Source: Eledone cirrhosa
Taxonomy: Eukaryota
NCBI GenBank assembly: GCA_964016885.1
Contig: OZ024747.1
Coordinates: 57,164,001-57,228,000 of the forward strand
Length of the DNA: 64,000 bases
Direction: 5' to 3'
Part shown: positions 3,413 through 61,434 of the stretch, one piece after another
Layout: each line of letters begins with the position of its first letter
How positions within the stretch are numbered: the first letter of the stretch is position 1
The notes under the pieces: generated by a model
What the model saw: only the letters and a program-made list of their open reading frames with translations
Told to the model about the DNA's origin: nothing
Databases searched by the model: none
Position numbers and translations under genes: made by a program

Positions 3413-6400
3413 GATAGCAACTAACAGTGCTGCGATCGAATGTGGCTTTTTAGCCCAGCCAATGATCTAAAATGTCTTGCACAGAGTCGGCAACCAAAAC
3501 ATTTACTGGGAATAGTCGGCTGTGGTTGGAGTTCGTGTACTTTTGCATGTCGCTTGAGTCCTCCTGCTGATTTACATTCTCTACCACATGTTTGGCAAGC
3601 ATGATGAGTAGCATCTCCAACAGCAGCCTGGTAGTCAACCACTGGTCTTACTTTATGACTGCGAAGATGACTTTCGAGTCCAGCTTTGCTTAGGCAGAGT
3701 CTCGCACAGACGCTGCATGTCAGAAACATAGGAGGACCCTCGCCGTCTGGAAGTGCAACAGCAATACCCTTCCTCACGTCCCGCCTTACTTTCTCGTGTG
3801 CGATTCGAGATGCCTCAAAGGCAACTTTTCCCTCATATACAGTCTTTCTCCATTTACTACGATCAGCAGCAATATTTTCCCATGTATCAGCAGAGATGTT
3901 AGCGTCTTTCAGAGAGGCCTTCAAGGAATCCTTATACCTCTTTTTTGGTTTATGTGGCGGTCGTTTTCCTTTAACCAACTCTCCATAGAAGAGTTGTTTT
4001 GGTATTCTAGAATCCTTCATCCTGGCAAGGTGACCACTCCAACGGAGTCGCTGCTTAAGCACAAGAGCTTCTATACTGTCACACATAGAGCTTTCCAAAA
4101 TCTCGACATCACTGATGTGGTCCCTCCAGTGAACGCCATGTATCCGTCTGAGACACATCTGATGGAAACGCTCCAATTGCTTAAGGTGGCGTCGATATGT
4201 GACCCAGGTCTCGCAGGCATAAAGAAGACAAGAGAGTACACATGCCCTGTACACCCTTACCTTTGTCCTCCTGCATATGTCTCGCCGACCCCAGAGTCGC
4301 CTTTCTAGCTTTCCGAAAGCATCACTTGCTTTCCTAATCCTAAGTGAGATTTCACTGTCAAGGTTGCCGTATCGATTGACAGTGCTTCCCAGGTAGACAA
4401 ACTGATCAACCACTCCAAGTCGTTTGCCATACACATAGATGTTTGGTTCAGTGTACTGCCCACCAGGTGCAGGTTGGTACATGACGACGGTTTTCTTGAG
4501 ACTGACAGTCAAACCCAGGGCAGTGCAAGCGTCAGAAAATACATTCAAAATGTGCTGCATATCACTCTCTGTGTGCGCTACAAGATCGCAATCATCTGCA
4601 TACAAGAGGTCTCTTATGACTGATGTAAATACTTTTGTCTTCGCAGCAAAGCGCCTGATGTTAAATATGCTGCCTGAGGTTCGATATCGGATGTAAACAC
4701 CATGCTCGCAATTCCTGAATGCAATACAGAAAACCATTGCAAAGTATATGGCAAACAGGGTCGGTGCTGGAATATCCCCCTGTTTCACTCCATTTTTTAC
4801 TGAGATAGGCTCCGACATGTTACCTCCGACATTAACCCAAGCCTTCATGTCGTCATGGAAAGACCTAACTAAAGCAAGGAACTTATCAGGGCAACCAAGT
4901 TTCTGGAGAACCTTCCATAATGCATCTCTGTTGACAGTATCGAAAGCCTTTGTCAGATCGACAAAAACCTGATACAGATCCAAGCCCTGTTCAATGCACT
5001 TCTCCTGGAGCTGTCTAGCTGAGAAGATCATATCAGTAGTGCCGCGTCCAACACGAAAACCAGATTGACTTTCAGGAAGGACACAATCTGCAATGTGTGT
5101 CAGCAGACGGTCCAGAAGCACCCTACATAAAACTTTCCCCACGACAGAAAGCAATGATATACCTCTGTAGTTCCCACAATCATTCCTGTTACCCTTTCCC
5201 TTGTACAAGACCACCATTACTGCATCTCTCCAGTCCTCAGGCACGGATTCATTAGCCCATATCCCTCCAAACAGAGAGTGAAGATGTTGCAGGAGTCTCT
5301 CACCACCATATTGTAGGAGCTCAGCATGTATGCCATCCATACCTGGAGATCTTCCACTGTTCAGCTTCGAAATAGCCACTGCAACCTCCACAAGTGTCGG
5401 AGGTTCTGCGAGAGCTACTTTCACAGGACTTTCCGGAATGAGATTGAGGAAATCTTCACTGACGACAGACGGCTGATTCAAAAGATCATCAAAGTGCTCT
5501 CGCCACCTTCGTAGAATTCCCTGTGAGTCACGAAGAAGTTCTTTGCCATCCCTGCTGCGAATCGGTGTCACCAGAGAAGAAGACGGTCCATAAACCTCAC
5601 GCAAGAGACTGTACAACAGCTTTGTGTTATTGCAATCAGACGCAGTTTGTATCTCACCAGCCTTCTCACTCCACCACTGATCCTTCATCTGAGAAAGACT
5701 CCGCCTAACACGTGATTTTACATCCCTGAGCTCCTCATGCAACGTATTCCTCTCCTGTGGTTTTGCCGTCAAGTAGCGTGACAGAGCGCGCCTCTTATCA
5801 GCCAACAAGTCATCTATATGCACATCTTTCTCATTAAACCAGTCCTGATGTTTTCTCTGCACCAATCCCAGAACACGTCTGCCTACATCATAAACCGACT
5901 TTTTAAGGGTCGGCCAATCCTCACCAAGATCTGCAGCCTGCATCTCTTCTTCCAATGTCCTCTTCACATTTTTATCCTTAAGACGAGCAGCATTCAATCT
6001 TTTGGGCAGGGTAACACCAGGAGCCCGGATTTTACGTTTGGTGATTAGATTCACTTTTGCGCGTACCAGGCGGTGGTCCGTCCAGCACTCAGCTCCACGA
6101 AGAACACGAACACACTGCACATCCTGTCTGTCACGCATCCTGACTAGGACGTAGTCCAAAAGATGCCATTCCTTAGATGCAGGATGCATCCATGTGGTCT
6201 TGAATTTGTTCTTTTGTTGGAACATGGTGTTGGTAACACACAGATCCAGCTCCTCACACATCTGCAGCAAGAGCATACCATTGCTGTTACACTTTCCCAC
6301 CCCATGCCTTCCGATTACATTCCATGTGTTAAAATCCCTACCCACTCTAGCATTAAAGTCACCAAGCACGATGACTTTGTCTGCCTGAGGGATATTTCTT

Positions 6401-32674: not shown

Positions 32675-33020
32675 GGAGGCACATGGCTTAGTGGTTAGAG
32701 CATTGGCCTTGCAATCGAAAGATTGTGAGTTCAATTCTCAGACTGGGTGATGTGTTGTTTCCTTGAGCAAGACACTTTATTTCACATTGCTCCAGTTTAC
32801 TCAGCTGTAGAAATGAGATGATAGGGACTGGAGTCCCTATCATTCCACTGTAAAGTGGTCGTGGAGGTGCCACGGCAAAAAAGCAGCCAGCACTCACTGT
32901 AAATGAGGTTGGTGTTAGGAAGGGCATCCAGCTGTAGAAATCAAGCCAGAATCAGTTCCTGTCCCACCCTTGCAAGCAGGGAAAAGTGGACGTTAAATGA
33001 AATGATGAGATGAATGATGA
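32675..33020 (+). mobile_element. SINE family 1
   Basis: Matches 9971-10319. Confidence 0.9.
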
Positions 33021-50397: not shown

Positions 50398-50580
50398 TTC
50401 ATTTCATTTCATTTTACGTCCGCTTTTCCCTGCTTGCAAGGGTGGGACGGGAACTAATTCTGGCTTGATTTCTACAGCTGGAGCAATGTGAAATAAAGTG
50501 TCTTGCACCCGGTCTGAGAATTGAACTCATAACCTTTCGATTGCAAGGCCAATGCTCTAACCACTAAGCCATGTGCCTCC
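50398..50580 (-). mobile_element. SINE family 1 with internal deletions
   Basis: Tail and head present; the middle is lost at a CTACAGCTG/CTGGAGC microhomology. Confidence 0.8.
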
Positions 50581-50640
50581 ACTATATATATTATATATAT
50601 ATATATTATATATATATATATATTATATATATATATTATA

Positions 50641-50890
50641 TAGTTATGTAATAAACAACATAAAGCAATTATTTCATTTACCAGTGGTTTCTTAAAAGCA
50701 AAAAAAATTTGCTTTCAATCATCAGAATGAAAAAATCCTGGTGCATTTATTGGCGTTGGATTTTAAAAACAAAAATATCATCTATATGAAAGTGAGGGTG
50801 GAAAAGGATGATTGAAAGCAAAATGTTTTTGCTTTTAAGAAACCACTGGTAAATGAAATAATTGCCTTTTGTTGTTTATTACATAACTAT
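50641..50890. mobile_element. Fold-back hammerhead-bearing element (arms 50641-50724 and ~50808-50890)
   Basis: TAGTTATGTAATAAACAACA...ATCATC is inverse to GATGATTGAAAGC...TGTTGTTTATTACATAACTA; flanked by (TA)n; same family as 61231-61404. Confidence 0.8.
50672..50732 (-). ncRNA. Type-I hammerhead ribozyme motif, apparently intact
   Basis: Minus: TTTCATT-CTGATGA-TTGAAAGCAAA-TTTTT-TTTGCTTTTAA-GAAACC-ACT-GGTA-AATGAAA. Stem I 7/7, stem II 11 bp, stem III 3 bp, GUA site; 10.1-11.1 is U-A rather than G-C. Confidence 0.75.
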
Positions 50891-51309
50891 TAAGCTCTGT
50901 TACCTACATAGAGCACTCTTTTTTCCTGGACTTTTCCAACTGAATTACTTCATTTATATATTATATATATATAATATATTATATACATATATTATATATA
51001 TTATTTTATATATATATATTATATTAATATATATATATATATATATATAATATATTATATTATATATATATATATATATTATATTATATAATATACATAC
51101 ATTATATATATATATTATATATATATTATATTATATTATATATATATATATTATATTATATATATATATATATTATATTATATATATATATTATATTATA
51201 TATATATATTATATTATATATATATTATATTATATATATATATATATTATATATATTATATATATATATATTATATATATATATATATATTATATTATAT
51301 ATATTATAT

Positions 51310-51351
<42 letters not shown>

Positions 51352-51656
51352 ATATATATAATATAATATATATATATTATATATATATATATTATATTAT
51401 ATATATTATATTATATATATATATATATATTATATATATATATATATATATATTAGAATTGGTGCTCTGAAATAGCTATATATATATGAATGTTTATATA
51501 GTGTATTTTGCAATACACTCTATGCTTAATTAAAAGCATTTCGAAGACCCTATTCTATTGTTATAGACTATATATACATATATTATATATATATATATAT
51601 AATATATGTATTAGAGTATATATACATATATATGTTTTAGAGTATATATACATATA

Positions 51657-61171: not shown

Positions 61172-61310
61172 CTATCTATATATATATATATATGAATGAA
61201 GTATTTCCGTCGGAAAGGAATAGTAAAATAGAGTGCTCTATGTAGGCTACAGAGCTTATGTAGTTATGTAATAAACAACATCATATTTAATAAAAACACC
61301 ATGTTATTTA

Positions 61311-61372
61311 TTCATTTCTGACGACTGAAGACAGATATAATATCTGCCTTCAAGAAACCACTGGTAAATGAA
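61311..61372 (+). ncRNA. Type-I hammerhead ribozyme motif (same family as 50672)
   Basis: TTCATT-t-CTGACGA-cTGAAGaCAGATAT-A-ATATCTGcCTTCAa-GAAACC-ACT-GGTA-AATGAA; inside 21-bp inverted ends at 61261 and ~61384-61404. Confidence 0.65.
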
Positions 61373-61398
61373 ATAATTATCTTATGTTGTTTATTACA

Positions 61399-61434
<36 letters not shown>

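What the first reader, a model, noticed from the sequence alone, without database searches (positions are those of the whole stretch)
50641..50890. Apparently intact hammerhead in a fold-back element; the mirror arm is cut off exactly at the core
Seen: the minus strand gives stem I 7 bp, CUGAUGA, an 11-bp stem II, GAAAC, a 3-bp stem III and GUA. The inverted right arm begins at GATGA, so it lacks the CU of the core and the 5' stem I. The non-canonical U10.1-A11.1 pair may lower activity. This is the best candidate for an active ribozyme in the window.
Basis: partly seen in the sequence, partly recalled or inferred. Interest (0 to 1): 0.75.

Follow-up and report, generated by a model that had tools for sequence, protein, structure and literature searches.

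The report
Hammerhead in truncated Hydra retrotransposon end
This is a cut-down, mirror-image end piece of a very abundant Penelope-like jumping gene; its self-cutting-RNA motif is real in sequence and of a known kind, but it is predicted to need a partner copy and to be buried by its own mirror arm, and the break at the core likely reflects where the two arms could pair rather than a design.

Summary
The hammerhead is present as described (minus strand, 50732-50672). The element is larger than reported (50640-50954): two 5'-truncated end repeats (pLTRs) of a Hydra-clade Penelope-like retrotransposon, joined back to back in (TA)n, one carrying a 64-nt tail. The parent has a 710-aa telomerase-like RT/GIY-YIG ORF with the Hydra motifs, and the motif pattern matches 8,179 times in this genome. 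The cut at the core is not a family trait: 1 of 76 arm starts falls in it, and junctions cluster at self-complementary sites, this one at a 13-of-17 match. 'Best active ribozyme' is not supported: stem III is a dimer-type palindrome, and in a read-through RNA the mirror arm is predicted to bury the ribozyme by about 53 kcal/mol. No RNA data were available. Hydra-clade hammerheads are published, and this scan noted them before on other DNA of this genome. One side lead: a sister lineage carries a nested, GUG-site (predicted uncuttable) hammerhead whose core stayed unchanged while its free positions drifted, possibly a built-in dimer partner; folding energies do not favour that pairing.

The parts
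50640..50808 (-). Short (untailed) pLTR arm, positions -83 to +85 counted from C3; holds the complete hammerhead
   Evidence: +85 is the end of 32 of 40 inverted arms
50672..50732 (-). Type I hammerhead motif: stem I 7 bp, CUGAUGA, stem II 11 bp, GAA, stem III 3 bp, GUA; predicted cut between 50679 and 50678
50680..50688 (-). Stem III and loop, palindrome ACCA-C-UGGU; predicted 8-bp intermolecular helix in a double hammerhead
   Evidence: hairpin +0.4, duplex -8.2 kcal/mol; the two-strand minimum-energy fold is the double hammerhead
50807..50823 (.). Junction of the arms: 2-nt overlap (50807-50808) at the start of a 13-of-17 match between the pyrimidine tract at -100..-82 and G5..stem II (+2..+20)
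50807..50890 (+). Truncated second pLTR arm, +2 to +85; lacks C3, U4 and 5' stem I, so it cannot form a hammerhead core alone
50891..50954 (+). 64-nt tail (+86 to +149); in full-length copies it continues into the 5' leader of the ORF; begins with a GCUC..GAGC hairpin
   Evidence: (88 of 90 tailed arms end at +147..+149)
50582..50639 (.). (TA)n-rich target, left flank
50955..51455 (.). (TA)n-rich target, right flank

Best explanation
The locus is a gene-less, fold-back fragment of the end repeat of a Hydra-clade Penelope-like retrotransposon, likely made when the element's reverse transcriptase copied the same RNA family twice from two fixed start points and the two short copies joined where the sequence is self-complementary, leaving a hammerhead that is predicted to be silent here. 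Shown: identity with the pLTR of full-length copies (87-88% to a young sister subfamily, 89-95% to closer ones), the two fixed outer ends (+85 and +149), variable inner junctions at self-complementary sites, (TA)n flanks, a conserved hammerhead with a palindromic stem III. Inferred: the endonuclease nicks both strands in (TA)n; each nick primes cDNA at one of two internal sites just 5' of a GCUC..GAGC stem (as shown in vitro for a Poseidon PLE, PMC11167929); both cDNAs stop early and anneal or switch template at a complementary stretch, here the pyrimidine tract against G5..stem II, which removes C3-U4 from one arm. Because copies run 39 or 103 nt past the cut site, the template was uncut multimeric RNA or a re-joined circle. 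In the parent the ribozyme likely cuts slowly, as a dimer or with protein help, 226 nt upstream of the ORF start, to define unit-length RNA; in this fragment no promoter is known and read-through RNA would form a hairpin of about 80 bp.
For: Parent: hammerhead-tail-leader-710-aa ORF-3' region-hammerhead, unit 4,278 bp, in tandem and inverted arrays; 150 best EN-region matches at 96-100% identity, many in 714-codon open frames. RWK, DKT, YRDD, CxCx5C, CxxC and CxH present and conserved at 78-100% per defining residue in 118 homologues; model pLDDT 94, best fold matches telomerase RTs, E 9e-9. Family size: 1,476 exact tail-boundary matches and 8,179 core-plus-stem-III matches, controls 0. Ends and junctions; 34 of 76 arm starts at -51..-39, where the best palindrome outside stem II lies, and the window's pairing (-100..-82 with +2..+20) ranks joint third among self-matches. 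The two arms of one locus differ by 2.9% against 5.7% between loci (31 fold-backs). Structure-keeping variation: stem II pair 3 G.U 89 / G-C 22, pair 6 A-U 107 / G-C 4, stem I pair 5 U-A 64 / U.G 41 / C-G 4, N7 in four states (115 distinct sequences). Dimer -33.4 against 2 x -12.2 kcal/mol; sequestration by the mirror arm. Published: inverted truncated pLTR plus tail and (TA)n targeting (PMC8557442), dimer-type PLE hammerheads with low activity (PMC4209133, PMC6765202).
Against: No cleavage or expression was measured. Folding energies ignore tertiary contacts, Mg2+, proteins and folding during transcription; a transcript starting between the arms would free the ribozyme, and the trimmed 61-nt motif folds as a monomer in its minimum-energy structure (stem III probability about 0.5). 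The own partner arm is the nearest arm in only 8 of 31 fold-backs, so a single template molecule is not shown. The junction sample comes from the first 90 of 1,476 listed places, all on one contig, needs an exact 24-mer, and holds a few copies with the same junction that may be duplicates. Pfam gave no hit for the ORF; the GIY-YIG assignment rests on motifs, the paper's description and by-eye likeness to Hydra-1_Obim. Compensatory double changes are few. No intact ORF of exactly this copy's subfamily was found (L193-L195 are broken).
Confidence: 0.88

Rival explanations
1. The locus is an active monomer ribozyme in its genomic setting, and one arm was cut at the core so that only one strand of the hairpin element can self-cleave.
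For: All core bases and three stems are intact; the only strict-descriptor hit in the window; the 61-nt motif folds alone into the hammerhead.
Against: 1 of 76 arm starts in the core; both cores intact at 19 of 90 sampled arms; the junction sits on a 13-of-17 self-match; the truncated arm still covers the ribozyme from G5 to +85 as antisense and is predicted to bury it.
Confidence: 0.06
2. The element is a MITE-like DNA transposon with 83-bp terminal inverted repeats and a TA target, and the hammerhead is incidental.
For: Inverted arms, TA flanks and many 250-bp look-alikes.
Against: The arms are unequal (tail on one side), the middle differs from copy to copy, many copies have a single arm, and the arms are the pLTR of an RT-encoding element.
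Confidence: 0.02
3. Same parent, but the mirror arm arose by one cDNA folding back on itself and copying its own strand, or by later DNA rearrangement, not by two priming events.
For: 22 of 38 junction rows are symmetric palindromes; arms share subfamily variants (80 shared against 58 and 46 private); a 5-kb fold-back is 99.3% perfect (L191).
Against: Snap-back copying alone does not explain why the second arm stops at the same +85 site as single-arm and tandem copies, just before a conserved stem.
Confidence: 0.25

Closest known systems
Hydra clade of C-terminal-EN Penelope-like elements, e.g. Hydra-1_Obim (Craig et al. 2021, PMC8557442; passages and supplement rows seen)
   Same: RWK, DKT, CxCx5C, CxxC and CxH motifs; single ORF of about 700 aa; (TA)n targets; hammerhead in the pLTR with an ACCA-N-UGGU stem III (Hydra-1_Obim: acca-a-tggt); inverted truncated pLTR with a tail on one end.
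   Different: A separate family: the stem III-to-cut-site motif of this family is not in the paper's supplement (0 hits); GUA instead of GUU; unit 4.3 kb against 2.5 kb because of a microsatellite-rich 3' region; tail 64 nt against the 30-40 bp given for PLEs.
Minimal and atypical type I hammerheads of metazoan PLEs (Cervera and de la Pena 2014, PMC4209133; parts 1-2 of 4 read)
   Same: Type I, long stem II, short palindromic stem III, pairs of motifs 100-700 bp apart on opposite strands, predicted dimer action.
   Different: No G10.1-C11.1 pair and no bulged base after A9; position 10.1 is U, C or A opposite a nearly fixed A.
PAc, Poseidon element of Anolis carolinensis (Frangieh et al. 2024, PMC11167929; parts 1-2 of 4 read)
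   Same: Two internal RT start sites that define the tail, AT-rich targets, copies that run through the hammerhead cut site.
   Different: Different clade; there the hammerhead overlaps the ORF start and needs the protein to cut; here it lies 272 nt (C3 to ATG) upstream and nothing was assayed.
Metazoan non-LTR retrozymes (PMC7229834, passages; bioRxiv 10.64898/2026.07.22.740005, part 1 of 5)
   Same: Non-coding, type I hammerhead, PLE-related.
   Different: Those are head-to-tail arrays with a hammerhead in each unit; this is an inverted, non-tandem truncation product.

Membership tests
Type I hammerhead ribozyme | Core C3 U4 G5 A6 N7 G8 A9, G12 A13 A14, A15.1-U16.1, H17 (consensus as given in PMC3088659) | tested here: met
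   left arm only
Type I hammerhead ribozyme | Three stems closing on the core, ends in stem I | tested here: met
   7, 11 and 3 bp; structure-keeping variation among 115 sequences
Type I hammerhead ribozyme | Site-specific self-cleavage after H17 | not testable with these tools
   needs an in vitro assay
Canonical (tertiary-stabilised) hammerheads / Rfam models | G10.1-C11.1 pair and a match to a curated model | tested here: not met
   U-A here, G-C in 0 of 115; no Rfam hammerhead hit; loop 1-loop 2 contacts not tested
Dimer-type PLE hammerheads | Short stem III with palindromic stem and loop | tested here: met
   ACCA-C-UGGU; predicted dimer -33.4 against 2 x -12.2 kcal/mol
EN+ Penelope-like element | Single ORF with telomerase-like RT | tested here: met
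   In parent copies, not in the window (no ORF remnant in the window)
EN+ Penelope-like element | C-terminal GIY-YIG endonuclease | tested here: inconclusive
   VVY..YVG..R motif with Y, Y, G, K and R invariant, but no Pfam hit and no endonuclease among the listed fold matches
EN+ Penelope-like element | Partial tandems forming pLTRs, inverted 5'-truncated copy, tail on one end | tested here: met
Hydra clade | RWK, DKT, CxCx5C linker, CxxC and CxH around the conserved E and N | tested here: met
   residues 37, 114, 555, 658, 689, against the description
Hydra clade | Insertion into (TA)n and hammerhead in the pLTR | tested here: met
Hydra clade | Placement in the Hydra clade on an RT tree | not tested
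   no tree built; likeness to Hydra-1_Obim judged by eye
Non-LTR retrozyme | Head-to-tail units, each with a hammerhead | tested here: not met
   inverted arms, one complete motif
MITE | Fixed length, equal terminal inverted repeats, constant interior | tested here: not met
   unequal ends, variable junctions, RT parent

The most novel reading that the evidence does not exclude
In a sister lineage of this family a nested second hammerhead with a GUG site, about 1.45 kb upstream of the active one, has been kept as an enzyme-only half: it would pair with the GUA hammerhead through the palindromic stem III and cut it once per unit without being cut itself, a natural built-in heterodimer ribozyme that frees the element from needing a tandem copy.
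Probability: 0.2. Interest if true: 0.62.

Novelty: new member of a known kind. Interest (0 to 1): 0.27.

Why it matters
The locus itself is ordinary debris of an abundant retrotransposon. The family is useful in two ways. Its young intact ORFs, two fixed ends and mappable junctions make the still unsettled steps of Penelope insertion (two primed starts, how inverted ends join, cut or uncut template) testable in a clade that none of the papers read here assayed. And if the nested GUG hammerhead is a kept enzyme half, it would be direct evolutionary evidence that these weak ribozymes act as dimers in vivo, which the papers read propose but do not show.

Tried and rejected
Rfam: no hammerhead hit; MIR396 and other weak hits reflect the hairpin and AT content. 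Sequencing runs: no RNA holder listed, so no reads were laid and expression is open. Look-up of earlier notes by sequence gave one unrelated note. Pfam and PDB sequence searches of the ORF were blank; the single-sequence fold was unusable (pLDDT 35) and was redone with an alignment. First BLAST extents put the left arm at -98; that was extension over the imperfect self-match and was corrected to -83. A genome search for junctions like this one found 1 other copy in a shifted register, and the pattern was too tight to match the window's own copy, so it is only a lower bound. Dimer energies were understated by a crude stem II builder and were redone. Retrozyme and MITE readings were rejected as above. 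Luense et al. 2017 on dimer-cleaving PLE hammerheads is not held; only its title was seen in reference lists, and it may already cover U10.1-A11.1 variants or uncuttable partners. No measured effect of U10.1-A11.1 was found in the library; PMC3088659 reports natural hammerheads whose stem II starts with a U-U mismatch. Six literature searches listed no paper on a nested GUG partner; one search returned only unrelated papers, so this is weak evidence of absence. Supplements of the bioRxiv preprint were not opened.

Full report
OBSERVATION. The minus strand at 50732-50672 reads as a complete type I hammerhead with stems of 7, 11 and 3 bp and GUA at the cut site. A strict descriptor finds it once in the window and never in 100 block shuffles. 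The right arm begins at G5 (50807) and matches the left arm at 79 of 83 positions. Rfam has no matching hammerhead model. Positions below are counted from C3 (50725) along the sense strand.

THE ELEMENT IS LARGER AND MULTICOPY. A genome search gave 81 matches from the 40 best of 1,457 candidates. The copies show that the right arm carries a further 64 nt (50891-50954) before the (TA)n flank. An exact 24-mer across that boundary occurs 1,476 times and a core-plus-stem-III pattern 8,179 times, reversed controls 0; the second count includes some double hits. I took the first 90 of the 1,476 listed places (all on contig C1; L075 and L140 dropped at de-duplication, L105 and L147 gave two arms each). 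88 of 90 tailed arms end at +147..+149, and 32 of 40 inverted arms end at +85.

THE CUT AT THE CORE IS NOT A FAMILY FEATURE. Of those 90 arms, 38 rows are fold-backs with the junction inside -120..+85. One of their 76 arm starts lies in C3-A9 (an even spread gives about 2.6); 34 lie at -51..-39 and 13 at -17/-16; 22 of 38 are symmetric. 17 of the 38 show overlap between the arms and the rest abut or have short inserts (read). A self-complementarity scan of the pLTR ranks stem II first, the -48..-31 palindrome second, and the pairing of -100..-82 with +2..+20 joint third; the window's junction is at the first base of that pairing, 13 of 17 matching. So the loss of C3-U4 is what joining at this complementary stretch produces. 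Both cores are intact at 19 of 90 arms' loci, one at 56, none at 15.

PARENT. Pairs of hammerheads 3.6-4.9 kb apart enclose RT and endonuclease fragments. A protein search returned 150 scored matches at 96-100% identity, many in 714-codon frames. Five such regions show hammerhead, tail, leader, 710-aa ORF, microsatellite-rich 3' region and hammerhead, in tandem and inverted arrays; the unit is 4,278 bp and the ATG is at +272. The tail is simply the start of the leader. The window's arms are 87-88% identical to this young subfamily and up to 95% to an older, broken one (L193). The protein has 1,342 homologues at E<=0.001, folds at pLDDT 94 with telomerase RTs as best matches, and has the RWK, DKT, CxCx5C, CxxC and CxH motifs that Craig et al. 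give for the Hydra clade, along with (TA)n targeting and hammerheads (PMC8557442). Their Hydra-1_Obim is visibly homologous and has an acca-a-tggt stem III, but this family's motif is not in their supplement. Pfam and PDB sequence searches were blank and no tree was built. The window holds no ORF remnant of the parent.

THE RIBOZYME. The core is intact in 63 of 76 tailed and 31 of 34 inverted arms that span it. Among 115 distinct sequences with the exact stem III, N7 takes four states and common stem variants keep pairing (G.U/G-C, U-A/U.G/C-G, A-U/G-C), though true double changes are few. Position 10.1-11.1 is U-A in 100, C.A in 10, A.A in 3 and never G-C, so it is a family trait; its effect on rate is unknown here. 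Stem III with its loop is the palindrome ACCA-C-UGGU: +0.4 kcal/mol as a hairpin, -8.2 as a duplex, and two copies fold by default into a double hammerhead (-33.4 against 2 x -12.2). That fits published PLE hammerheads, which cut weakly and as dimers (PMC4209133; PMC6765202; PMC3088659); the Poseidon one needs its protein and is not needed for insertion in vitro (PMC11167929). Against a strict dimer need, the trimmed 61-nt motif does fold as a monomer (stem III probability about 0.5).

ACTIVITY AT THIS LOCUS. On the minus strand the antisense of the right arm precedes the ribozyme. The hairpin is predicted at -117.2 kcal/mol against -64.1 with the hammerhead enforced, and all hammerhead pairs have probability 0.0; the plus strand also folds as a long hairpin. 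Only a transcript starting between the arms would escape, and even the left arm alone gives stem I a probability near 0.02. The neighbouring tRNA-like SINE points away from the element on the minus strand. Expression could not be tested. I therefore read this copy as probably silent.

MECHANISM. Shown are the fixed outer ends, the variable self-complementary junctions and the (TA)n targets. Both ends lie 3-6 nt before a GCUC..GAGCACUCU stem, a lead taken from earlier notes and checked here in one parent copy. By analogy with the two internal RT starts of PAc, I infer two primed cDNAs, one from +149 and one from +85, that stop early and join by base pairing. Arms of one locus differ by 2.9% against 5.7% between loci and share subfamily variants, but the partner is the nearest arm in only 8 of 31 cases, so one template molecule is not proven and snap-back copying remains a rival. 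Copies pass through the cut site, so the template was uncut or re-joined RNA.

SIDE LEAD. In the sister lineage a second hammerhead with GUG at the cut site lies about 1.45 kb upstream of the GUA one; G17 is outside the H17 consensus. A pattern for it matches 690 times. Of 70 loci read, 62 are followed by the element body and 59 of these span the core; CUGANGA is intact in 54 of 59 with N7 in three states, and GAA in 61 of 62. Four older copies against one young copy differ at 0, 0, 0 and 1 of 36 core and stem positions but 7-9 of 55 free positions (Fisher p 0.01-0.08; not independent), and nearby flank differs at 26 of 125. In part of the youngest lineage the sequence upstream was lost right up to stem I. 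Against a helper role: the GUG-GUA double hammerhead is 4-7 kcal/mol above the best alternative fold in all four pairs tried, the youngest lineage has weakened stems II and III, the comparison rests on few lineages, and the copies of the window's own lineage that I read show no such copy before the body. A self-insertion that survived because it stopped cutting is the simpler reading.

NOVELTY. Hammerheads in Hydra pLTRs and inverted truncated ends with a tail are published, and this scan already noted Hydra hammerheads and two-armed elements elsewhere in this genome. This is a new family of a known kind. Six searches listed nothing on a nested uncuttable partner, but the most relevant paper (Luense et al.) could not be read. 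Interest 0.27.

Noticed in passing
L214 ~5160-5255 (also L212, L213, L215, L216, L191, L192, L049, L056, L217-L286): Nested second hammerhead with a GUG site about 1.45 kb upstream of the GUA hammerhead in a sister lineage; core and stems conserved more than free positions; 690 pattern matches. Its three early differences from the active copy are all A-to-G.
   Followed up: yes
window 61191-61405: Fold-back of an older subfamily of the same family (CUGACGA core, C.A at 10.1-11.1, different stem II); its inverted arm is only about 21 nt plus tail and does not cover the core.
   Followed up: partly
window 22652 (+), 28750 (-) and 28913 (+), 52998 (-), 18527 (+): Other type I hammerhead motifs with (UA)n-palindromic stem III; 28750/28913 form a symmetric fold-back with a tail on one side, the same design in another family.
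   Followed up: partly
window 38567 (+): Weak hammerhead-like match with 2-bp stems II and III from the loose descriptor; not examined.
   Followed up: no
window 50400-50581 (-) and 32682-32745 (+): tRNA-derived SINE-like repeat (weak Rfam tRNA hits); the same repeat flanks or interrupts several other family copies (L029, L191, L196).
   Followed up: no
L030/L029 at -100..-76 from C3; window 50801-50808 (-) holds its 3' part: Pyrimidine tract ending in CAG, kept in two diverged subfamilies; could be a 3' splice site of a pLTR intron as in Penelope. The window copy reads CAC there.
   Followed up: no
L191 660-5666: 5-kb fold-back, 99.3% perfect, with its centre inside the endonuclease coding region; a very recent insertion.
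   Followed up: partly
L036 510-1390: Array of about 16 units of 57 bp made from a short inverted pLTR fragment.
   Followed up: no
L193 ~3500-3700: Nested end of a more distant family with a CCGACGA core (C at position 4), long stem II and a related tail.
   Followed up: no
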